From contig CAZLEV010000008.1 of the NCBI GenBank assembly GCA_964558645.1, positions 32,001-96,000 of the forward strand: a stretch of DNA of 64,000 bases, given 5' to 3'. Numbering within the stretch: position 1 is the first letter of the stretch; each line of letters starts with the position of its first letter. This document shows, one piece after another, positions 16,614-30,551 of the stretch. Below the pieces are notes generated by a model. It was given only the letters and a program-made list of their open reading frames with translations. It was not told where the DNA came from and did no database searches. The stretch is from an uncultured archaeon (GTDB taxonomy: Archaea > Asgardarchaeota > Thorarchaeia > Thorarchaeales > Thorarchaeaceae). A program made the translations under genes and the position numbers.

Positions 16614-17390
16614 CTAGTTCGCAACCTCGAGTCTTCCGGCTATACTAATAGAGCCACCCATGAGGATGTATACCTCTGTTGCTATGAGCCTTGAGAGAAT
16701 TGATGTAGGGTCGCTAGAGAGGACACACCACGAGAAATACTGGACGATGAACAGAAGCGACGCAATGAAGGAGAAACCAAACGGAAGAACCAACAATCCA
16801 CTTCTGAATGTCCACAACAGAACAGCAAGGATTCCTACTATCATCAGGATACCAACGCCTACGGGAATACACACTGCAATGTCTATGAGAGTTCTACCCG
16901 GGGAGACGATTGCACCGAATATCTGAGTCAGGAGAACTCCTGAAACTGAAACAAGTGTTATCAGGAGCAGTATGTCTCTCGGTTTCGCTGCAGCTATCGT
17001 GTTCCGGCAGACAATGAGATACCTAGTGGTGCCTATTCCCCATAGAAGAACACCCGGGATGAGGAGGAGGGATATTGTGAAATAGAACTCCTGGCCCCTT
17101 GGCATGCTTGATATGATTGTCGTTCCAATCTCAGCAAGGGTCAGGACGATAAGCCCCAAGGCGAGAAGAAGATTCATCGAGTTGAATCTATCTTCGAGTC
17201 CATAATCGTTTCGTGCAAATCTGATGAGGCCCAGAACTCCCGGTACCAGAGCTGCAATCGGAGCAGAGATGTTCAGAAACATAATTGGGCTACCGACAGA
17301 TTCCGACGAATCCAAGGCAAGGACGATGATGAGCATCGATGCCGCGAGCAGGACGAACACAGACACAACATAGACCATCTCCTTTTTCAA
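16614..17390 (-). CDS. Polytopic membrane protein (about 7-8 TM), unknown function
   Basis: Successive hydrophobic helices. Confidence 0.75.
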   Translation of the reverse strand: MKKEMVYVVSVFVLLAASMLIIVLALDSSESVGSPIMFLNISAPIAALVPGVLGLIRFARNDYGLEDRFNSMNLLLALGLIVLTLAEIGTTIISSMPRGQEFYFTISLLLIPGVLLWGIGTTRYLIVCRNTIAAAKPRDILLLITLVSVSGVLLTQIFGAIVSPGRTLIDIAVCIPVGVGILMIVGILAVLLWTFRSGLLVLPFGFSFIASLLFIVQYFSWCVLSSDPTSILSRLIATEVYILMGGSISIAGRLEVAN

Positions 17391-17469: not shown

Positions 17470-18672
17470 CTAAGACGGTTGAGCTGTGAGTCTTTCCCAC
17501 TCCACCTCATAATTCAAGGTGGGAAATTGTCTCTCTACATCATCTCTGGTGTGTTCTAGTATCTGATTGATTGGATTCACTCCAGTGTAATCACTTATCC
17601 TCTTTGTGATGAACTGGAGCAATGCTCTGAAGCCCTCACTCAGATATCCGGGAGATAGTTTGTCTCGCATAGTTGCTGATGTCAGAGAGCTCCTTATCTC
17701 CACATCTACTCCCTCTTCGAGGTCTACCAAGTGCAACCAAGAATACTGCCCTGTCAGTTTTCCCCTTGAATCATAGAAGACTTTTTTGGCAATGCCGAAG
17801 CCAAGAATCCTTGCGCAATGTTTCAAGACGGATTGGAGAACCGATGAGTACAGGACCAGCCTGGCCTGTGCGGGAGATACTCTTTCTATTGCCTGTTGTT
17901 CAGCCAATTGAGCAATCTCATCGAGGAAGACTCTCATATCTGCTGTCTTGACACGTTCGGCGGCAATAGAGAGTGGGGTTTCTCCGTCGAGCTGAGAGAC
18001 GGCTTTCTCTGTTTCCCACGAGACTGATGTCGGCCCTCTCTCAGACTTCATCAGGGATGTCGCCTGGTAGATGTCGTCAGGCCTTACCGGCGTCGACAGA
18101 GAGATGGTCTTCTCCCAGAGTGCCTCAGCCACCAGATCCAGTGCAACGTCCAGTGGTATCTCAAGAAACTCTGCCGCCTCTTTCACGCTTATCCTGTCGG
18201 GAAGGAGTTTGAGGAAGGCTGTGACTTCGGGGTCGCTGGTAATCATGTCCCAGTTCAGTTTTGGTCGGATGATTGAGTCGGGGTCTATCTGGTCCCGAAT
18301 CAACTCCTCAATTACGTGCTTCTCAAATCGAGTATACACAGCCAAGTCCATGTCAACCCACCTGAGCAGGCCAAACATATCCTCGAATCTCCTGACAAGT
18401 TTCCGGAGTTTCTCCCTAAGGTCTTCGGAATCACGTCGGACCGAGAGTGCCCCCAGTGCCCATTCACCGAACTCAACAACTATCTTGTAGTCGGTTCCTT
18501 CGAAGGCTCTGGCCTTAGATGTGATAGAGTTTGTGGCCTCATCGAAGAACGAGGTCATGGCTACAATGAACGACGATATGAGGTGTGGATCAAAGATGCC
18601 TTGGGCGAAATCTTTGTGGTACATACAGACGCCCGTTTCGCGTTTCATGATGTACAGGCTCCTTGCATCCAT
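17470..18672 (-). CDS. Longin-domain protein with tandem winged-helix domains (NPRL2/NPRL3-like architecture)
   Basis: The N-terminal LYIMKRETGVCMYHKDF...DPHLISSFIVAMTSFFDE...YKIVVEFG segment fits a longin fold. It is followed by two wHTH-like segments (LLPDRISVKEAAEFLEIPLDVALDLV and SQLDGETPLSIAAERV). Confidence 0.7.
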   Translation of the reverse strand: MDARSLYIMKRETGVCMYHKDFAQGIFDPHLISSFIVAMTSFFDEATNSITSKARAFEGTDYKIVVEFGEWALGALSVRRDSEDLREKLRKLVRRFEDMFGLLRWVDMDLAVYTRFEKHVIEELIRDQIDPDSIIRPKLNWDMITSDPEVTAFLKLLPDRISVKEAAEFLEIPLDVALDLVAEALWEKTISLSTPVRPDDIYQATSLMKSERGPTSVSWETEKAVSQLDGETPLSIAAERVKTADMRVFLDEIAQLAEQQAIERVSPAQARLVLYSSVLQSVLKHCARILGFGIAKKVFYDSRGKLTGQYSWLHLVDLEEGVDVEIRSSLTSATMRDKLSPGYLSEGFRALLQFITKRISDYTGVNPINQILEHTRDDVERQFPTLNYEVEWERLTAQPS

Positions 18673-18834
18673 GTAACTCTCTCCGCTGGATTTGTTTCGT
18701 TATGCGGTCCCGTTCGAAACAACCATGTCCAGCTGTTTCAACTTTGCTGCTTTTGAGTATTCTACTGACGTATGTCAAGAAGAGGATATGTCAAGTTCCC
18801 AAGTGCTATAAGCAGAACTCCAGTTCTGCCCGGT

Positions 18835-19440
18835 ATGTCCGAAGAGCAGAACATCAATTGCCCAATATGCGGAACGGGCAGGCTCACCGTCAGCTCGATG
18901 TTGTATAGTGTTCCTTTCTTCAACGAGCTTGCTATGTTCACGATGAGATGCAACACTTGCAATTTCACACACAATGATGTCTTCTCTGCAGAGGACAGAC
19001 CACCAAGTAGATGGACTCTTCATGTGGGCAATGAGCGGCTTCTTCGGGTTCGCGTTGTACGTTCTAGTTCAGGAACCATCAGGATGCCGGAGTTTGGAAT
19101 CGTCATAGAACCTGGCCCCGGTGCTGATTCTTTCATCTCCAATGTTGAAGGAGTACTCTCCCGGACACGCCCTGTGGTCGAGACCGCTGTTCGATTCGCG
19201 GATAAACCTGAGGAGAAGGCCAGAGGGAGAGAGGTGATCGCTATGATTGACGAGGCGCTCGCGGGCAATCTCGAGTTCACTCTTGTCATCGAGGATCCAG
19301 TGGGCATTAGCGGCATTCTTCCGGAGGATATGTCGCTGGTTAGTTTTGACGAATTGACAGAAGAAGAGGCATCGAAACTCAGAGGGGCTCCTGGTTGGCT
19401 GGATACGGTTCGGGATGAGTATTCGGAGCGTAACGGTTAA
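18835..19440 (+). CDS. ZPR1 zinc-finger domain protein (archaeal single-module type)
   Basis: CPICG...VPFF...CNTCNF, RVVRSSSGTI, IEPGP, SNVEG and IEDPVG motifs. Likely ATG at 18835 (track 18772). Confidence 0.92.
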   Translation: MSEEQNINCPICGTGRLTVSSMLYSVPFFNELAMFTMRCNTCNFTHNDVFSAEDRPPSRWTLHVGNERLLRVRVVRSSSGTIRMPEFGIVIEPGPGADSFISNVEGVLSRTRPVVETAVRFADKPEEKARGREVIAMIDEALAGNLEFTLVIEDPVGISGILPEDMSLVSFDELTEEEASKLRGAPGWLDTVRDEYSERNG

Positions 19441-19757: not shown

Positions 19758-21887
19758 ATGTCTGAACTGATATTTCTATTAATAGGCATAGTTTCCGGCC
19801 TTCTTGCAATTTTCACTGCCCTATATATGTTCCAAAAAGTCAAGACGTTCGACGAAGGGAACCAAGAAATGAAAGAGGTCAGTGGATTGATTGAGAAAGG
19901 TGCATATGCTTTTCTCAAGATTCAGTATCGTATTCTCTCGGCCTTTACGGCAGTACTAGCAATTCTGCTAGCTCTGGCCTTTGGCCAGCTTGGAATCCCG
20001 ATTGCTGTTTCATATGTGCTTGGCTCAATTGCAAGCATGATTGCAGGTTATGTCGGCATTATTATCGCAACAATTGCTAACAGACGAACAGCTGCAGCTG
20101 CTGCTTCAGGTGGACTGAATCCAGCCTTCAATGTAGCATTCAAGGCAGGCTCTGTTATGGGACTGATGATTGCGGGCATTGCCCTGGCAGGTCTAGGATT
20201 CCTCTATATACTATGGAACTCGCTGCTCGCACTCACACCCGTTCTCATCTGGGAGGTTGTGACCGGTTTCTCATTTGGAGCGAGTACAGTGGCACTCTTC
20301 GCCAAAGCTGGTGGCGGAATCTACACCAAGACTGCAGATCTAGCTGCCGATATAGTGGGAAAGATTGAGCACAATATTCCCGAAGATGATGCTAGAAATC
20401 CCGCCTCGATAGCTGACGCAGTGGGTGATAATGTAGGTGATGTTGCAGGGACTGGTGCAGACATCTATGACAGCAACGTCGCTGCGATACTGGCGGCAGC
20501 CATCATTGGCGCTGCAATTGACGCTACTCTCGCTCCTGCCGTTTCCTTTGGGCTTCTACCTCTGATGATTGCAGGTCTAGGCACTTTTGCATCGGTCATC
20601 GGAGTGTTTCTGGTTCAGCCGAGAGAGGATGAAGACCCTGGCCCCGTCCTGAATAGAGGGACCTACATAACTACCATTCTGTTTGTCATCTTTACGGTAG
20701 TAGTCACTTGGCTCATGGGTATCGATCTGACGATTGCGGCATCCGCCACACTTGGTCTCATCGCAGGTGTCATAATTGGTGTGACCTCCGATGTCTTCAC
20801 AAGTGACAGAGGGATAGGCGGGTTCAAGCCTGTTCCTACCATGGTTGAGTCTTCGACAAAGAGTGCAGCAAATCTCATTCTCTCAGGATACTCCTACGGT
20901 CTGCTGAGTGCTGTCCCGTCAGTAATCGTGATTGCTGGAGCCCTTGTGGGATCCTTCGTTCTTGGCACTTCTGCAACAACCCTCGGACTTGGCACTTGGG
21001 ACGGTGGAATATACGCCGTGGCAATTGCTGCAGTGGGTCTGCTGGCGACAAACGGAATGATCATGAGTTCCGATGCCTATGGTCCCATTGTAGATAACGC
21101 AAGAGGGGTCATTGAGCATGCACATGTGGGCGAACAGGCGCTCATTGACTGCGACAAGCTGGACGCAAGCGGGAATACGGCAAAGGCAATAACCAAAGGC
21201 TTCGCGATTGCCGCATCAGCGATATCAGTACTGGCTCTCTTCTCGGCATTCATTGGCTCAGCAAGGGAGTTACTTGGGTATGAGCTCATTGTAAATTTGG
21301 CAAACCCATTCATTCTAGCCGGTGGTTTCATCGGAGCATTGGTACCTGTTACATTCTCGGCAATCTTGATTCTTGGTGTTGGAAAGAACTCTGAGCGGAT
21401 GATAGCTGAGATACGAAGACAGTTTGCAGACGACCCTGGTATCCTAGAGGGCACATCCCTGCCCGATTATGACAAATGCATCCAGATAGCAACTTCTGGA
21501 GCAATACGAGAGCTTCTTCCAGGTACAGTCATTGCCATAGTAGTGACCATCATCACAGGTTCAATGCTGGGAATAGAAGCAGTGGCAGGGTACTTGGGCG
21601 GTGCAGTCATGGTTGGCATGATAATGGCTTTGCTGATGTCTAACGCGGGTGGGGCCTGGGACAATGCCAAGAAGATAATAGAGTCTCCCGAATCTCCTGT
21701 CCCAGCTGATGATCCGCGCTATGCGGAAGTCCACGCAAACGCTGTGTTGGGTGATATGGTCGGGGATCCGTTCAAAGACACTGCGGGGCCGTCTATCAAT
21801 ACTCTGCTGGTAGTTATCTCATTGACGGCAACACTGTTCTTGCCAGTCATGGTACAGATACATCTTGCGCTACTGGCTCTGTTCTAA
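19758..21887 (+). CDS. hppA: Membrane-integral ion-translocating pyrophosphatase (probably K+-independent H+-PPase)
   Basis: GGGIYTKTADLAAD, IPEDDARNP, DNVGD, DAYGPIVDNA, GNTAKAITKG, GGAWDNAKK and GDPFKDTAGP motifs. Confidence 0.95.
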   Translation: MSELIFLLIGIVSGLLAIFTALYMFQKVKTFDEGNQEMKEVSGLIEKGAYAFLKIQYRILSAFTAVLAILLALAFGQLGIPIAVSYVLGSIASMIAGYVGIIIATIANRRTAAAAASGGLNPAFNVAFKAGSVMGLMIAGIALAGLGFLYILWNSLLALTPVLIWEVVTGFSFGASTVALFAKAGGGIYTKTADLAADIVGKIEHNIPEDDARNPASIADAVGDNVGDVAGTGADIYDSNVAAILAAAIIGAAIDATLAPAVSFGLLPLMIAGLGTFASVIGVFLVQPREDEDPGPVLNRGTYITTILFVIFTVVVTWLMGIDLTIAASATLGLIAGVIIGVTSDVFTSDRGIGGFKPVPTMVESSTKSAANLILSGYSYGLLSAVPSVIVIAGALVGSFVLGTSATTLGLGTWDGGIYAVAIAAVGLLATNGMIMSSDAYGPIVDNARGVIEHAHVGEQALIDCDKLDASGNTAKAITKGFAIAASAISVLALFSAFIGSARELLGYELIVNLANPFILAGGFIGALVPVTFSAILILGVGKNSERMIAEIRRQFADDPGILEGTSLPDYDKCIQIATSGAIRELLPGTVIAIVVTIITGSMLGIEAVAGYLGGAVMVGMIMALLMSNAGGAWDNAKKIIESPESPVPADDPRYAEVHANAVLGDMVGDPFKDTAGPSINTLLVVISLTATLFLPVMVQIHLALLALF

Positions 21888-24509: not shown

Positions 24510-25019
24510 TCATGCTTGATCTGATTGAGAGAGGTTTCTGAAGAATGACTCGTAGTCGATCTCGAATCCCACCCTCTTGCCGGGCCTGACCTTCTTGTTG
24601 TCATCAGAGAACTCGGTATATCCCATCGAATCAAGTTCTCTTAGATCTGCACGGACACCTCTTCGGCTCTTCTTTCTGAACTTCTGTACCCTATCAATGG
24701 AGACCCAGCCCCCTTCCTGATATGCCAGCGTGATCACCACCAGCAGAGTAGATGCAAGCCTATCGGGAAGCGGCGTTTCTTCCAGTGAGTCTTGGGTTCT
24801 TGTACTGGTGTCTAGATAGAATACATGGTCAATCGGATTATGTCTTATCTTCAGACCGAGAGGCTCTAGTTGGTTCTGCAGTGAACCCATCTTCTGGAAT
24901 AACACATGTCTACCAGCATCCTCAGGCAGTGCCAATGCGTCGAGAAGATCAGGCACACCTGCACCAATAGGATTGCCGGTTCTGGTGAGCATTCGGATCA
25001 GGATTGCGTATTCGTTCAT
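24510..25019 (-). CDS. KITE-type tandem winged-helix protein (ScpB/Nse1/MAGE-like SMC accessory subunit)
   Basis: Two wHTH-like halves (LQNQLEPLGLKIRHNPIDHVFYL; LASTLLVVITLAYQEGGWVS...LRELDSMGY); lies downstream of the SMC and kleisin genes; AAGGAGG SD upstream. Confidence 0.7.
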   Translation of the reverse strand: MNEYAILIRMLTRTGNPIGAGVPDLLDALALPEDAGRHVLFQKMGSLQNQLEPLGLKIRHNPIDHVFYLDTSTRTQDSLEETPLPDRLASTLLVVITLAYQEGGWVSIDRVQKFRKKSRRGVRADLRELDSMGYTEFSDDNKKVRPGKRVGFEIDYESFFRNLSQSDQA

Positions 25020-25447
25020 AGTGCTCTACCAAGCCTCCTTTACTGAGTGACCGCGAGTCATGATCCCGATATTCCTTTGCGCCTTGGTCACTTCTTGTGA
25101 CTTCACTTCGTGACTCCCTATTGTGGCTTTGCATTATATACTGATTCCGCACAGCATTGTTTGTGAAGTATCATGGCTCTAGCAACTAATAACCGAACTC
25201 ACTCCGTGAAGACGAACACCATCAGAGGTCAGTCTGCTGAGGCTCTTGCTTATGCCTATCGGACGGTCCTGAGGTGATATTGGATGACTGTTCATTCTCA
25301 ATTACTCTCAGTTAGGAATAGCCGGAGTCGCAGGGCAATATCGACGCAGGCAATCTCAGAGGTATACTTCTCGAGATGAATGCTGTGTGTCCTGATGTGG
25401 TTGATACGTTGAACGATTCCTCACCTGCTAGTCGGGAGATCTCCTGA

Positions 25448-26083
25448 CTATTCTCGCAGAACTATTCTATTATCTGGATTATAGACCAGTCTGCCCCTCG
25501 CTACCAGGATCACGACGAGCAGAAACCTTCGGAGGAACTTCTCGAAGTCCTCATGTTGGACAATGTCGTCGATGGAGATCTCTCTCCCTTTTGGAATACT
25601 CTTGAGAAAATCCTCGAGGTCTCTCATGAATACAGAGTCCTCCGACTGAAACGTGAAGCCATTTGGTAACTCCGTGATCTGAGGGATGGCATCTTCTGGT
25701 GGCTCCTCGGAGAGGGCTTCAATCATATGTAGTACTCTCTCGAAGGCTCGCGAGAGGGGGATGTAACTCAGCGTATTGGTAGTGATCGGGTGATTGTACT
25801 CTATCATCCCTGCCAGGGTTCTGGGTTTCACTCTCTTCAATGCGTTGACGTAGACTTCGGGGGCGGCCAGAATTCGAGCGAGTTCTTGGACCCTTGTGAC
25901 TTTTAGGCCCAATATCTCATTGAGCATCTCATCGACATCGATTCGGCTTCCGATTTCTGCTGCAGATGCCCTCAGTTGCTGAAAAGACTTTGTCAGCTTG
26001 AAATCAAATGGATCCTCTCCCCTCGCACGGATTGCTTCTGCCATTTCGAAGACTTCCTTCGCTAGGTCACCTTCTTCGGTCAT
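25448..26083 (-). CDS. Kleisin (ScpA/Nse4-like)
   Basis: N-terminal GEDPFDFKL (compare ScpA iDPwdIdi) and C-terminal wHTH ISIDDIV...RRFLLVVILVARGRL; directly after the SMC gene. Likely start at 26083 (track 26125). Confidence 0.75.
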   Translation of the reverse strand: MTEEGDLAKEVFEMAEAIRARGEDPFDFKLTKSFQQLRASAAEIGSRIDVDEMLNEILGLKVTRVQELARILAAPEVYVNALKRVKPRTLAGMIEYNHPITTNTLSYIPLSRAFERVLHMIEALSEEPPEDAIPQITELPNGFTFQSEDSVFMRDLEDFLKSIPKGREISIDDIVQHEDFEKFLRRFLLVVILVARGRLVYNPDNRIVLRE

Positions 26084-26096
26084 CACGTTCACCCTA

Positions 26097-29000
26097 CTAT
26101 TGTCCCTCGAATCTGGGGCTCTCAATTATCACGGAGGGTTCAGTACCCTTCGGACTGACTACGCCGATACGTCTGTCAGCATGCTTTAGCAAGTGTGTGC
26201 TCTTGGCGGGTGTGAAGATTATGAACTGACTTCTTCTTGATGAGTCATGAAGTAGCATGCTGACCATCTCAGTGTTAGTGGCGTCGAGAAACGTGTCTAT
26301 CTCATCCAGAGCGTAGACTGGTGCAGGGTTGAAACGCTGAAGAGCTAGGATGAGCCCTATCGCAATCAAGGAGCGTTCGCCTCCCGAGCCTGCGCTTATC
26401 TCCTTGTATTCCTCGCTCTTTATTCTCGATTTGAAGTCTACCCCGTATTCTCCGTCATTCATCGAGAGCTCAAACCTGACTTCTGCTGCGAACTTCACGG
26501 TGCTCAGAATATCATTTACTTCGTCCTCCACCTCTCTCAACGTTTCGTTCATACCGTTGTGATACTGTGTTCTGATATCCCGTACAGCCTCTTCCGCTTC
26601 CTCCAGTTCCTCTCGTATCTCCTCTACCTTCATGGTGAGTTCTACTAGTCGTTGTTTGAGCTTGGACTCATTCTGTGCAAGCACTTCTGATACGTCCTGA
26701 TAGTCGTCTAGTATCGCTCTGACTCGAACAAGTTCTTGACGGACATCTTCTAGAGGCCTTACACCCTCTGGACATTCCTCGCCCTCGAGTGCCTTCCGAG
26801 TTTCATCCAGCTCAATTTCCATGTTGCTCATTTGTCTCTTCAGTTGTAGGACCTGCAGTTGGCTATTCTTTATACTCAGATTGAGTTCGACGAGCTGTTC
26901 AGCGAGTTCTCTGATAACGTCTCGCGAAGTCTGAAGCTCACTGCGAACACTTGTAAGCTCTTCTTCCACCTTTTCCCTGCCTGTCTTCAACGTTTCAATT
27001 GTGTCCAGTATTGTTCTTGCCGATGACTTCGACTTCTTCATTTCCGCACGCAGTTCTTCAAGCCGGTTGCTGAGCATGACAGTATCTTCTTCAATATTCT
27101 TCAGTTCTTGTCTCTTCAGGGCCTCATCTCTCTCGGTAGCGTTGAGGTTCGCCTCTGCCTGTGAGAGATCCTGTTGTAGCCTCTTCTGTTTCATTCTGAT
27201 TGCTCGTTGCTTTCCGACAAGTCTACTTCTCTCGGGTGGCTGAGTGTTATCCAGTGCTCGGAGCTCTCTCTCAGCGATTCCAAACTGTCGTTGGAGATCT
27301 TTAAGCTCATCATCTGTGGCTACTACTCTCTCCTGCAACTCTGGGATCCCTTCCATTAGCTCCTTGCGCTTTTCCCAGGTTCTGCCCCATCTGGTGAAAT
27401 GGCTCAGGAGTTCGACCACCTCTTCTCTCTCCTCCGTGACCTTTTCCAGTTCAGCGATTATCTCTGTGACTCTCTTGGAGGCTACCTTTCGTTGCTTTTC
27501 GAGTTCTTCGAGCCGGGACTGCAGCGGCGCCGTAGAAACCAGACCCGATGGTTCTCTGGCAGGATAGCTCATTGTCCTCGTGTTCTCTGGTACCACGAGA
27601 TGCCCCTCCAAAGAAACAGTAGTGATCCCCTTCTTGCGTGCTAGCCGTGATGCCATACGCGACTCTTCAGCGACAACTATCCTGCCAAAGGCTCTTGACA
27701 ATAGCCTTTCATACAGTTTCTCTAAGGCTACGAGGTTCCAGAGTTCTCCCCGAACATCCTCATCTTCCAGGGAAACCTCATCATGGCCATCTTCATCTAA
27801 TTGGAGGAATATGATGGGGGAGGAGGCGCCCATCTGGTTCCTCAGTCTCTCCAAGAGGGCATATTCAGCTTCATCGGTCACGATAAATGAAAAAGCCAGT
27901 TCATCTCGTAAGACTGCTTCAACTGCTGGTCCGAGGGTGTTATCTGCTTCTACCATCTCTATAACTGGACCGAAGACATTGGTGAGCCCGTGTACCTGAA
28001 GGGTTGCCTTGAGATCTCTCACATTCTTGGGTATCCGTTCTGAGGTCTCTGACAACTGAATCCTCAGGTCTTCGACCTGTTTCTGGAGCTGTGCAGCTCT
28101 AGTGTTCTCTCTGAACCTCTCCTCATTGAGAGTAGCTAGACGGTTTTCAAGGGACGACTTCGTCTTGGCCAAGTCCTTCTGATCGGTGCTCTCCAACGAG
28201 TCCCAGATGTTTCCCCATCGACTCTGGATACTCTCCAATTCGGCCTCGTCGACTTGGAGCCGTTCTCTGAGGCTTCTTAGCATCACATCCTTGCTCTCTA
28301 CCTGTCCTTGAAGGGCTTTGTAGGTGCCATAAGCCTCAGCTCTCTTCGTGTTCCACTCTGAGAAGATAGCCATGGAGTCTTCTAGTTCGTCTTGTTCTTG
28401 TTCAAGCCCTTCGAGTTCAATTTTGAGCCGCTTCAGGCTCTCCATATACTCCTCTTTCGCATTTGACCCTCTCCTCAGGTCGGCTATTATTTTGCTCTTC
28501 TTCCTCTCTTCGTTCTTCATTTCTTGTTCTAGTTTTCGGACTTCGAGACCGGCTTTCTTGCTATCATCCTCAAGTCTGAGTAGTCTGTTCTCCTCTTCCT
28601 TGACTCTCGCATCGATGTTACCTATCTCGCGCTGGAGTTTCTCCATTCTCTCTTCAATGGCTTCTGATTTCTCCTCTTCTTCAGATCGTTTTGCCTCGAG
28701 TTCGGCAGACTCAGCGATGACTTCTCCTAGACCCTCTTCTCTCTCCTCAGTTTCAGAGCGAGTATCCTCGAGCTTCTTCTCCAGAGTCGCTATCGTTGCC
28801 CATTTCAGCTCAAGCTCGAGCTCTTTTTCTGTGGCTTGAAGCTCTCTCTTCCGGAACAGACGCTTCAAGTCCTTCTGAAGGAGTTCAATCTCTTGCTGGA
28901 CTACCTGTGCCTCGGAGACCGCTGATTCTAATCGTCTCTTGTCGTGGGCGACCTGTGTTTCCTGAGAGCTAATCCGGTCTCTGAGAACCCCGAGTCCTGT

Positions 29001-29471
29001 CCCCTCTTCAACAAGTTTTCTTACCTCAATAGGATTCATATCACGAAGTGCATTGATTCTCTCCTGAGGCATGAACACGAGGGGGTTGTCAACATCAATC
29101 CCCAATCTCTCGACGGCGTTGTTGTGCTCTGCCGCTTTGACTCGCTTGCCGTCAATATAGGCGCGAGGTACTCCATCTCTGTCAATCTTTCTGAGTAGTT
29201 TCTGTGTCTGGCCGTCTGAGACCACAGTCAACTCAATCTCTGCGGAGCTGGCTCCGTAACGAATGAAATCACTCCACTTAGAGTATCTCTTCTCTCGCTG
29301 ATTGGAGCCAAGTGCGAATTTCACCGCATGAAAGATGGATGTCTTCCCTGACCCGTTGGGCCCTGTGATAACAGTGAGACCTGGATCGAACTCCACAGTC
29401 CCCTTGTAGAAGGAGAGGAAGTTCTCTAGCCTGACGCTAGCCAGACGAATCTCAGCCTCACTCAATATCAC
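26097..29471 (-). CDS. SMC-family ATPase, SMC5/6-like
   Basis: LENFLSF, GPNGSGKT, Q-loop FMPQ, long coiled coils with a central hinge, SGGERS, Walker B YALDEID and QFIIFTP. Confidence 0.92.
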   Translation of the reverse strand: MILSEAEIRLASVRLENFLSFYKGTVEFDPGLTVITGPNGSGKTSIFHAVKFALGSNQREKRYSKWSDFIRYGASSAEIELTVVSDGQTQKLLRKIDRDGVPRAYIDGKRVKAAEHNNAVERLGIDVDNPLVFMPQERINALRDMNPIEVRKLVEEGTGLGVLRDRISSQETQVAHDKRRLESAVSEAQVVQQEIELLQKDLKRLFRKRELQATEKELELELKWATIATLEKKLEDTRSETEEREEGLGEVIAESAELEAKRSEEEEKSEAIEERMEKLQREIGNIDARVKEEENRLLRLEDDSKKAGLEVRKLEQEMKNEERKKSKIIADLRRGSNAKEEYMESLKRLKIELEGLEQEQDELEDSMAIFSEWNTKRAEAYGTYKALQGQVESKDVMLRSLRERLQVDEAELESIQSRWGNIWDSLESTDQKDLAKTKSSLENRLATLNEERFRENTRAAQLQKQVEDLRIQLSETSERIPKNVRDLKATLQVHGLTNVFGPVIEMVEADNTLGPAVEAVLRDELAFSFIVTDEAEYALLERLRNQMGASSPIIFLQLDEDGHDEVSLEDEDVRGELWNLVALEKLYERLLSRAFGRIVVAEESRMASRLARKKGITTVSLEGHLVVPENTRTMSYPAREPSGLVSTAPLQSRLEELEKQRKVASKRVTEIIAELEKVTEEREEVVELLSHFTRWGRTWEKRKELMEGIPELQERVVATDDELKDLQRQFGIAERELRALDNTQPPERSRLVGKQRAIRMKQKRLQQDLSQAEANLNATERDEALKRQELKNIEEDTVMLSNRLEELRAEMKKSKSSARTILDTIETLKTGREKVEEELTSVRSELQTSRDVIRELAEQLVELNLSIKNSQLQVLQLKRQMSNMEIELDETRKALEGEECPEGVRPLEDVRQELVRVRAILDDYQDVSEVLAQNESKLKQRLVELTMKVEEIREELEEAEEAVRDIRTQYHNGMNETLREVEDEVNDILSTVKFAAEVRFELSMNDGEYGVDFKSRIKSEEYKEISAGSGGERSLIAIGLILALQRFNPAPVYALDEIDTFLDATNTEMVSMLLHDSSRRSQFIIFTPAKSTHLLKHADRRIGVVSPKGTEPSVIIESPRFEGQ

Positions 29472-29480
29472 ATACTACTC

Positions 29481-30551
29481 CTATCTTCCCATTATCCTTG
29501 CTAGTCGGTCGTGAGTCTTCTTTGCCCTCAGCAATCGTGTAAGCCTTTCTTCTGAATCTCCCTGAAGAAGGAACGGATATCTGTTCAGTATATCCAAGTC
29601 GTCGTTAGATAGAGGCAGGTTTGAATTCAGGGTTTCGATGACACCCTGGGTCTTGTGATACTCTTCTCCCACAGCCAACAGATAGAGCTGATCCAGGAAG
29701 TCATCTGGATACAGAGCCTGGGTCCGGTCAATCTCTTGTCGGGGTCGAGTCTCTACTTTTCGCGAGAGTCGCTTCAAATCTGAAACATTGCCGACCGGCT
29801 GGATGCCCGTAGTTTCTAGAAGGTTCTCTAACTTCTCCAATGTCATATGATTCGTTTCTGCGGGCGGATTGAGTAGCAGGCCTACCGCCAGGTGTTTCAA
29901 ATCTGCAAAGCTCCAGCCCTTGGTCGCATCTGTTACGATTGCCAAATCGATATCCTCTCTGTCTTTGAAGAATTGCTCGAAGAACCTAGTCCGATCTTCG
30001 GCATTGGGCTCCTCCAACATAATCGTCCTGTCAAACTGCAGTGCAAGTTCGGGAGGTAGTTCTTTGGGGCGGGTCACGGCAGCAACCACAAGGGTCTCAT
30101 CTCCATCCCATGTGGTCTCTTCCAGCTCACTTCTCAGTATTGATATGACATCATCGTTTCGTCTGAGTACTGACTCAAAGTGTCGGATATAAAGAATGAC
30201 TGGTGCATTTCTTCTTGCATACTCGAATACTGCCCTAATCGACTGGACTGCTTCACCTACGTCGGCTGATAGTAAGGCAAGTGAAACAGTAGCGAGTTTC
30301 AGGGGGATTTCTTTTGCTAGATGAAATGCATATGCACCGAAGTCTGTCCCTGGGGGGCCTACCAGAAGGATTCTTCCTCCAAAGAGTAACCCCATCGCAT
30401 CAAGTTGTTCCGTCATCATCGAGTAGTTGTCTATGACTGTCCTCATCAGTTCCGCCTGTCTAACGACACTGAACTGGCTGTGGCGCTGGGTCGGCAATTC
30501 CTCTGGATTCTTTATCTCGATGAGTTCGGAATAGGAAGTTTCTGAGCCCAA
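29481..30551 (-). CDS. CDC48/PAN-clade AAA+ domain protein, catalytically degenerate
   Basis: Classic AAA layout (RILLVGPPGT, VGEA...IRAVFEYARRNAP, VVAAVTRP, FDRTI, TKGWSFADL). Walker A GKT is replaced by DFG and Walker B DE by RH. Confidence 0.8.
   Translation of the reverse strand: MGSETSYSELIEIKNPEELPTQRHSQFSVVRQAELMRTVIDNYSMMTEQLDAMGLLFGGRILLVGPPGTDFGAYAFHLAKEIPLKLATVSLALLSADVGEAVQSIRAVFEYARRNAPVILYIRHFESVLRRNDDVISILRSELEETTWDGDETLVVAAVTRPKELPPELALQFDRTIMLEEPNAEDRTRFFEQFFKDREDIDLAIVTDATKGWSFADLKHLAVGLLLNPPAETNHMTLEKLENLLETTGIQPVGNVSDLKRLSRKVETRPRQEIDRTQALYPDDFLDQLYLLAVGEEYHKTQGVIETLNSNLPLSNDDLDILNRYPFLLQGDSEERLTRLLRAKKTHDRLARIMGR

What the first reader, a model, noticed from the sequence alone, without database searches (positions are those of the whole stretch)
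17470..18672. Longin plus tandem winged-helix protein resembling GATOR1 subunits NPRL2/NPRL3
Seen: an N-terminal longin-like domain of about 120 aa, then two repeats of the pattern short strand - helix - (L/I)DG-type turn - HTH - strand (FLKLLPDRISVKEAAEFLEIPLDVALDLVAEALWEKTISL...DDIYQAT and AVSQLDGETPLSIAAERV...LAEQQAIERV), then an unassigned helical C-terminal domain. Established: NPRL2/3 are longin proteins with C-terminal winged helices that act as the Rag GTPase GAP upstream of TORC1, and Asgard archaea encode longin/roadblock proteins and Rag-like GTPases. Inference: this may be an archaeal relative of that architecture. I do not see an obvious counterpart of the NPRL2 arginine finger.
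Basis: partly seen in the sequence, partly recalled or inferred. Interest (0 to 1): 0.72.

Follow-up and report, generated by a model that had tools for sequence, protein, structure and literature searches.

The report
Asgard longin-winged-helix relative of NPRL2/3
This Thorarchaeal gene encodes a distant relative of two subunits of the eukaryotic nutrient-sensing complex GATOR1; it shares their longin-plus-winged-helix scaffold but lacks the catalytic residues, so it is most likely an adaptor for small GTPases, and similar Asgard proteins were already reported in 2020.

Summary
The 400-aa ORF is real and conserved across Thorarchaeia. A confident model (pLDDT 84.5) shows a longin domain (1-128), two winged helices (130-196, 197-266) and a helical C-terminal domain. 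Both full-length and longin-free models retrieve NPRL2/NPRL3/Npr2 ahead of everything else in Foldseek. A profile of the Asgard-wide longin-WH-WH family it belongs to finds human NPRL2 first in the PDB (E 1.6e-6), ahead of transcription-factor wHTHs. It is not an NPRL2 orthologue: no GP motif, no arginine in the Arg78-equivalent hairpin, no third winged helix, and an extra helical domain. It sits in a long-branch Thor-specific clade with one paralogue. Best reading: a non-catalytic longin platform for a small GTPase whose acidic winged helices bind proteins rather than DNA. A paralogue carrying the same module fused to an Arf-like GTPase is conserved in Thorarchaeia. The gene's own neighbours include no GTPase. 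NPRL2-like proteins in Thorarchaeota were described by Liu et al. (bioRxiv 2020.10.19.343400), so this is a variant of a known kind. Other paralogues in the same genome resemble NPRL2 more closely.

The parts
17470..18672 (-). Gene for the 400-aa longin-WH-WH-helical-domain protein (subfamily A)
   Evidence: ORF; 205 homologues, named ones mostly Thorarchaeota; model pLDDT 84.5
18289..18672 (-). Longin domain, residues 1-128; no GP motif; invariant R55, R86, R115
   Evidence: Secondary structure; Z 12-13 to Sec22b, Fuzzy, VAMP7, MglB; motif counts; relatives hit Fuz_longin_1 and Sybindin weakly
18460..18468 (-). Tight G69-E70-W71 turn between longin strands 4 and 5, where NPRL2 has the loop carrying Arg78 (equivalence inferred from topology)
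   Evidence: Strands 63-68 and 72-78 in the model; 0 of 73 orthologues have Arg at 66-74; NPRL2 segment with Arg78 printed
18085..18285 (-). Winged helix 1, residues 130-196; acidic; conserved W186, which lines up with the Trp of NPRL3's first WH
   Evidence: Thor WH profile to NPRL3 278-346, E 0.63, weak; family profile to NPRL2 170-272, E 1.6e-6; charge
17875..18084 (-). Winged helix 2, residues 197-266, opening with the D199-D200-I201 linker strand and containing L228-D229-G230
   Evidence: Z 8.1-8.7 to HTH_47 (3k9t), Rv2067c and GdmN winged helices
17485..17874 (-). Helical C-terminal domain, residues 267-396, built of two helix-Gly-helix units; weak likeness to the N-terminal helical subdomain of H-NOX
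   Evidence: Internal repeat P 90.8%; 6mx5 residues 1-81, Z 6.0, rmsd 3.4, 78 aligned, within the range of chance arrangements; no Pfam family
16614..17390 (-). Co-directional downstream gene for a Thor-specific protein with about 7 predicted membrane helices; probable operon partner
   Evidence: Adjacent and same strand in 15 of 15 orthologous loci, gaps -4 to 121 bp; 7 hydrophobic segments; no Pfam family; few homologues, those named mostly Thor
18772..19440 (+). Divergent upstream ZPR1 zinc-finger gene; conserved neighbour
   Evidence: Pfam jr-ZPR1 and Zn_ribbon_ZPR1; 15 of 15 loci

Best explanation
The protein is a Thorarchaeia-specific, derived member of an Asgard-wide family built as longin-WH-WH. 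The family's first winged helix and linker share ancestry with the winged-helix tandem of eukaryotic NPRL2/NPRL3 (shown at family level). It most likely works as a non-catalytic adaptor. Step 1: the longin domain pairs with another longin or roadblock domain, its own copy or a paralogue (inferred from how longin domains work in NPRL2-NPRL3, MON1-CCZ1 and MglB). Step 2: this pair forms a docking surface for a small GTPase and modulates it as a platform or GEF-type cofactor, not by supplying an arginine finger (absence of the finger shown; GTPase binding inferred from the conserved fusion in a paralogue). Step 3: the acidic winged helices and the helical C-terminal domain recruit further proteins rather than DNA (inferred from charge and from RRE/HTH_47-type structural neighbours). 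A candidate upstream input is the co-encoded 7-helix membrane protein (speculative). I put the homology at about 0.8 and the functional mechanism at about 0.5.
For: Foldseek, full model: ranks 1-12 are all GATOR1/SEAC chains, E 3.3e-7 to 3.6e-4, 338-501 columns. Without the longin: ranks 1-13 again, then FAM91A1. VIA-align: Npr2 236-608 Z 8.7, rmsd 4.4, 157 aligned; NPRL2 Z 8.3; NPRL3 252-408 Z 8.3 over model residues 1-142; transcription-factor wHTHs Z 6.3 or less over about 50 residues. Profile of 30 diverse Asgard members: NPRL2 30.5 bits, E 1.6e-6, best transcription factor 20.1 bits. A profile with no Thor sequences also ranks NPRL2 first, E 2e-4, and aligns with the query family colinearly over 270 columns, P 99.8. 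A three-WH relative hits Pfam HTH_NPRL3 at its C-terminus, E 4.5e-5. GTPase link: the same module is fused to an Arf-like GTPase in this genome and in at least 15 of 18 related genomes. Non-catalytic: GP motif 0/73, hairpin Arg 0/73; both motifs mark GAP longins (PMC12290439). The WH1 HTH region has mean net charge -4.1.
Against: The query alone has no Pfam or PDB sequence match. With the four-domain profile, MarR (E 0.008) beats NPRL2 (E 0.74). Foldseek E-values for the WH part alone are only 1.4e-3 or weaker, and whole-chain TM-scores are 0.24-0.28. Single winged helices tie with NPRL2 in Z. The longin's closest structural neighbours are generic (Sec22b, Fuzzy, VAMP7, MglB). None of 15 orthologous loci has a GTPase gene nearby. 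The GTPase fusion belongs to a different branch of the family tree. The sister paralogue lies near histidine kinase or receiver genes instead.
Confidence: 0.55

Rival explanations
1. It is an adaptor in two-component or membrane-sensor signalling, with no GTPase partner. The longin and WH modules bind receiver domains, histidine kinases or the neighbouring 7-helix membrane protein.
For: The sister paralogue B has a histidine kinase or receiver gene within its locus in 14 of 24 cases, against 6.6% of random 13-kb windows in this genome (related genomes are not independent). Liu et al. note many fusions of NPRL2-like longins to two-component domains. The query is linked to a membrane protein in 15 of 15 loci.
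Against: The query's own 15 loci contain no kinase or receiver genes. Longin and roadblock domains are GTPase platforms in characterised systems (PMC3747258). The module is fused to a GTPase in a conserved paralogue. This rival does not exclude the best explanation.
Confidence: 0.2
2. It is a true GAP subunit, the functional counterpart of NPRL2. It would use a different conserved arginine (R55, R86 or R115), or stabilise an intrinsic arginine of the GTPase as MglB does for MglA.
For: R55, R86 and R115 are invariant in 73 orthologues. MglB, a GAP, is among the closest structures, Z 12.4-12.7. Most Thor Rab paralogues lack the intrinsic arginine and may need GAPs (PMC10933270).
Against: No GP motif and no Arg in the equivalent hairpin. 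R55 is not conserved across the wider family, and R86 lies in a helix in the model. Relatives' longins hit GEF-type families (Fuz_longin_1, Sybindin). Separate GP-motif longins exist in this genome and are the better GAP candidates.
Confidence: 0.13
3. It is a DNA-binding regulator with a longin input domain and two wHTHs. The likeness to NPRL2/3 is convergent or reflects only the generic wHTH fold.
For: Relatives hit TrmB, MarR and IclR-type HTH families weakly. One profile ranks MarR above NPRL2. The gene is divergent from ZPR1, as regulators often are.
Against: The HTH regions are acidic or neutral. Transcription-factor wHTHs score at least 2 Z units below NPRL2/Npr2 and cover only one repeat. 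Three of five profiles put NPRL2 ahead of all natural proteins.
Confidence: 0.1

Closest known systems
Eukaryotic NPRL2/Npr2 (GATOR1/SEACIT catalytic subunit)
   Same: N-terminal longin followed by tandem winged helices in the same order; family-level sequence similarity over NPRL2 170-272; top structural hit.
   Different: No GP motif, no Arg78 equivalent, no third C-terminal WH; extra helical C-terminal domain; the longin-to-WH arrangement does not superimpose rigidly (TM 0.24-0.28).
Eukaryotic NPRL3 (non-catalytic GATOR1 subunit)
   Same: Longin without GP motif; tandem WH (Z 8.3 to NPRL3 252-408); Trp at the end of the WH1 recognition helix.
   Different: The longin joins WH1 directly, without NPRL3's intermediate region; different C-terminus. 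The Trp is confined to the Thor branch and may be convergent.
Asgard 'NPRL2-like' proteins of Liu et al. (bioRxiv 10.1101/2020.10.19.343400)
   Same: [quoted passage not shown]
   Different: [quoted passage not shown] The gene pair at G000:C7:62854-65133 fits that wording at least as well. The supplement was not available, so identity with the query's family could not be checked.
Asgard GP-motif longins (FLCN/SMCR8 type; PMC12290439)
   Same: Asgard longin proteins proposed as ancestors of eukaryotic longin GAPs.
   Different: [quoted passage not shown]
FAM91A1 N-terminal domain
   Same: Tandem winged helices, next-best structural match (Z 6.8-6.9, about 118 aligned); weak profile hit (E 0.011).
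   Different: No longin match; weaker similarity.
MglB/roadblock and GEF-type longins (Fuzzy, TRAPP, MON1)
   Same: Closest structures to the N-terminal domain (Z 12-13).
   Different: No tandem winged helices of this kind.

Membership tests
NPRL2/Npr2 (GATOR1 catalytic subunit) | N-terminal longin domain | tested here: met
NPRL2/Npr2 (GATOR1 catalytic subunit) | Longin specifically of the NPRL2 type | tested here: inconclusive
   Best structural rows are other longins and roadblocks; longin-only profile gave no informative PDB hit
NPRL2/Npr2 (GATOR1 catalytic subunit) | Tandem winged helices after the longin, related to those of NPRL2/3 | tested here: met
   family-level profile E 1.6e-6; profile-dependent
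NPRL2/Npr2 (GATOR1 catalytic subunit) | Arginine finger (Arg78) in the longin loop | tested here: not met
   Three-residue turn, 0/73 with Arg; position mapped by topology, not by a residue-level superposition
NPRL2/Npr2 (GATOR1 catalytic subunit) | GP motif before longin strand 2 | tested here: not met
   0/73 orthologues, 0/34 paralogues; motif defined in PMC12290439
NPRL2/Npr2 (GATOR1 catalytic subunit) | Third, C-terminal winged helix (HTH_NPRL3-like) | tested here: not met
   The model has a helical bundle after WH2; relatives P0181 and C7:64219 do hit HTH_NPRL3
NPRL2/Npr2 (GATOR1 catalytic subunit) | Match to Pfam NPR2 (PF06218) above cut-off | tested here: inconclusive
   No hit for the query or in 121 Asgard genomes, but that search had no positive control
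NPRL3 (non-catalytic GATOR1 subunit) | Longin lacking the GP motif, plus tandem WH | tested here: met
NPRL3 (non-catalytic GATOR1 subunit) | Heterodimer with an NPRL2-type partner through the longin domains | not testable with these tools
   Needs biochemistry; no NPRL2-type partner with Arg finger and WH tandem was identified in this genome
GATOR1 system | DEPDC5/Iml1 third subunit | not tested
   Not searched
GATOR1 system | GAP activity on a Rag GTPase | not testable with these tools
   Gtr1_RagA matches exist in the genome but cover only part of the model, and the control genomes also rang
Asgard NPRL2-like family of Liu et al. | Present in most Thor MAGs | tested here: met
   71 of 76 other genomes of the same family have an A- or B-type hit at E below 1e-60
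Asgard NPRL2-like family of Liu et al. | [quoted passage not shown] | not testable with these tools
   No supplement held; published version not held
DNA-binding wHTH transcription factors | Basic recognition helix and wing; best match to a transcription-factor family | tested here: not met
   Mean net charge -4.1 (WH1 HTH) and -0.7 (WH2 HTH); Z 6.3 or less

The most novel reading that the evidence does not exclude
The Asgard-wide longin-WH-WH(-WH) family is the direct source of the NPRL2/NPRL3 scaffold, and the catalytic GP/Arg-finger longin of NPRL2 came from a separate Asgard longin lineage. The query and its paralogue would then be an independently duplicated Thor pair that forms a GATOR1-like longin dimer and links a membrane sensor or two-component input to an Arf-like GTPase. 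That would be a testable pre-eukaryotic form of nutrient signalling to a small GTPase.
Probability: 0.2. Interest if true: 0.78.

Novelty: new variant of a known kind. Interest (0 to 1): 0.5.

Why it matters
The origin of the GATOR1-Rag-TORC1 pathway is open. Earlier work traced the catalytic motifs to GP-type Asgard longins (PMC12290439) and reported NPRL2-like organisation in Thorarchaeota (bioRxiv 2020.10.19.343400). The evidence here ties the winged-helix half of NPRL2/3 to a large Asgard family whose longins lack the catalytic motifs, so scaffold and catalysis may have separate histories. It names concrete proteins for biochemistry: the GTPase fusion, the conserved gene pairs and the three-WH Helarchaeal proteins. 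The flagged gene itself is a long-branch, lineage-specific variant and is not the best proxy for the eukaryotic ancestor.

Tried and rejected
Complex prediction of the query with paralogue B (C1:257663-258955): no verdict, score 0.29 against a mark of 0.32, controls not folded; this is no evidence either way. RNA runs: none was listed. Pfam and PDB sequence searches with the query alone found nothing. The alpha-latrocrustotoxin and P0182 hits are ankyrin-repeat artefacts of the DGxTPL word. The designed CAP repeat 8vd6 is a non-natural HTH repeat and was ignored. Pfam NPR2 found nothing in 121 Asgard genomes, without a positive control. No GATOR1 chain is listed among the top 50 VIA-align rows for the full model; absence from the list does not exclude a match. 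The longin-only profile and the GP-longin query gave only noise against the PDB. The C-terminal domain had no Pfam, PDB-sequence or Atlas match; the H-NOX likeness (Z 6.0) is too weak to infer haem or ligand binding. The promoter and terminator scan was at chance level. The JGI name 'regulator of replication initiation timing' on a paralogue had no support and was set aside. Liu et al.'s supplement and published version were not held. A structure-based survey of Asgard proteins (10.1101/2024.07.03.601958) does not mention NPRL or GATOR in its main text.

Full report
Observation. The ORF lies at 17470-18672 on the minus strand and encodes 400 aa; the quoted peptides are all there. It has 205 homologues, and the named ones are almost all from Candidatus Thorarchaeota, so the window is most likely Thorarchaeal (inferred). 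The query alone matches no Pfam family and no PDB sequence. An AlphaFold2 model from 108 sequences (pLDDT 84.5, pTM 0.67) shows a longin fold at 1-128, winged helices at about 130-196 and 197-266, and a helical domain at 267-396. One detail of the finding needs correcting: only the second repeat has the LDG turn. The first has P158-D159, where the wider family has D/N-G.

Structural test. For the full model, Foldseek ranks twelve GATOR1/SEAC chains first (E 3.3e-7 to 3.6e-4, 338-501 columns, TM 0.24-0.28), ahead of stand-alone roadblock and longin proteins. I refolded residues 126-400 without the longin (pLDDT 88.8). The top thirteen rows are again Npr2, NPRL2 and NPRL3 chains (E 1.4e-3 to 0.24), followed by FAM91A1. 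In an exhaustive alignment against 48,161 representatives, Npr2 (Z 8.7, rmsd 4.4, 157 aligned) and NPRL2 (Z 8.3) lead. They are tied within one unit with single winged helices of a peptidase (3k9t), Rv2067c and GdmN. Transcription-factor wHTHs reach at most Z 6.3 over about 50 residues. Among the listed rows, NPRL2/3, Npr2 and FAM91A1 give the best matches that span both repeats. The longin by itself is closest to Sec22b, Fuzzy, VAMP7, TRAPP subunits and MglB (Z 12-13).

Family and sequence test. The query belongs to a large Asgard family. Relatives include longin-WH-WH, longin-WH-WH-WH, longin-WH-WH-V4R and the same four-domain form, spread over many Asgard families. A profile of 30 diverse members finds human NPRL2 first among PDB sequences (30.5 bits, E 1.6e-6, residues 170-272); the best transcription factor scores 20.1 bits. 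A profile of three-WH proteins (mostly Helarchaeal) without any Thor sequence also ranks NPRL2 first (E 2e-4) and aligns to the query family colinearly over 270 columns (P 99.8). One three-WH protein matches Pfam HTH_NPRL3 at its C-terminus (E 4.5e-5), a second independent region. Against this, a profile of four-domain proteins ranks MarR above NPRL2, and the Thor-only WH profile reaches NPRL3 only at E 0.63. I chose the profile members from search hits, so the E-values are not blind. A tree explains the weak direct signal: the query's subfamily A and its paralogue B form a Thor clade (100/100) on a long branch. Their duplication is thus probably independent of the NPRL2/NPRL3 split (inference; no eukaryotic sequence was in the tree).

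Catalytic features. Arg78 in the NPRL2 longin is the arginine finger (PMC8534245; PMC7464330), and GAP longins share a GP motif (PMC12290439). The query has a three-residue G-E-W turn at the topologically equivalent hairpin. None of 73 orthologues has an arginine there, and none has the GP motif. It also lacks the third winged helix. It is therefore not an NPRL2 orthologue and in these respects resembles the non-catalytic NPRL3. Its relatives' longins match GEF-type families weakly (Fuz_longin_1, Sybindin). GP-motif longins exist elsewhere in the genome, one fused to TackOD1. The winged helices are acidic or neutral, which argues against DNA binding.

Context. An A- or B-type gene is found in 71 of 76 related genomes at E below 1e-60. 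The query's neighbourhood is identical in 15 of 15 loci: DUF2070, PadR, two ABC transporters, a co-directional protein with about seven membrane helices, the query, and a divergent ZPR1. No GTPase, kinase or receiver gene was detected there. Paralogue B has a kinase or receiver gene nearby in 14 of 24 loci, against a 6.6% background in this genome. The strongest link to GTPases is indirect: a 657-aa protein fuses an Arf-like GTPase to the same longin-WH-WH module and is conserved in at least 15 of 18 related genomes. Three other family gene pairs lie adjacent in this genome (C3, C7, C17), which suggests that these proteins work as heterodimers (inference).

Mechanism. The most likely role is a non-catalytic adaptor. 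The longin dimerises and docks a small GTPase, and the winged helices and C-terminal domain recruit partners. Shown: fold, architecture, family-level relationship to NPRL2/3, absence of the catalytic motifs, the fusion in a paralogue. Inferred: dimerisation, GTPase binding, the role of the membrane neighbour. Rivals are an adaptor in two-component signalling (0.2), a GAP using another arginine or an MglB-like mechanism (0.13), and a DNA-binding regulator (0.1).

Prior art and verdict. Liu et al. reported a family with NPRL2 domain organisation in most Thor and a few Loki genomes, and many NPRL2-like longin fusions. Levine et al. described the longin-plus-WH architecture of NPRL2/3. Whether Liu's family is this one cannot be checked here. 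The C7 pair, present in 22 of 26 Thor genomes and ending in an HTH_NPRL3-like domain, fits their wording at least as well. The finding is real and correctly recognised, but it is a derived variant of a reported kind. Interest 0.5; its value lies in pointing to a wider family that makes the origin of the GATOR1 scaffold testable.

Noticed in passing
G000:C3:126548-130346 (L029:6549-10347): Adjacent genes, both ending in longin-WH-WH; the second (657 aa) also carries an Arf-like GTPase after an N-terminal longin-like region. The fusion is conserved across Thorarchaeia.
   Followed up: partly
G000:C7:62854-65133 (L030:5855-8134): Conserved gene pair of longin-WH proteins (the 428-aa one with an apparent extra roadblock-like domain, by eye) ending in an NPRL2/3-like terminal winged helix (HTH_NPRL3 E 0.002). 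Found in 22 of 26 Thor genomes, with a relative in 18 of 19 genomes of family f12. A better NPRL2/3-like heterodimer candidate than the flagged gene.
   Followed up: partly
G000:C7:67803-68738 (L030:10804-11739) and G000:C14:45282-46448: Two proteins with GP-motif longin-like N-termini; the first is fused to TackOD1 and lies 2.7 kb from the C7 pair.
   Followed up: partly
P0201, P0181, P0185 (the first two named Helarchaeota; L037, L038): Longin plus three winged helices, 343-360 aa: the same domain count as NPRL2, and the closest architectural match seen.
   Followed up: partly
G000:C1:257663-258955 (L028): Paralogue B, found in 33 of 41 genomes of the class, often among PAS histidine kinases and receiver genes.
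   Followed up: partly
G000:C17:55032-56776 and C11:59107-60015: Further stand-alone longin-WH-WH genes, two of them in tandem.
   Followed up: no
window 24510-30551 (-): SMC protein (1124 aa, SMC_N and hinge) followed by 225-aa and 169-aa ORFs without Pfam matches, kleisin- and kite-like by position only, and preceded by an AAA ATPase.
   Followed up: no
window 16614-17390 (-): Fast-evolving Thor membrane protein with about seven helices and a conserved E-D-R-F motif, always next to the query; no family assigned.
   Followed up: partly
PDB 8jj9 (human FAM91A1): The FAM91A1 N-terminal tandem winged helix recurs as the next-best structural and profile match, hinting at a second eukaryotic descendant of this module.
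   Followed up: no
P0218, P0224: Longin-WH-WH fused to a V4R (TRAPPC3-like) domain.
   Followed up: no
window 19758-21887 (+): Membrane H+-pyrophosphatase gene, a frequent neighbour beyond ZPR1.
   Followed up: no
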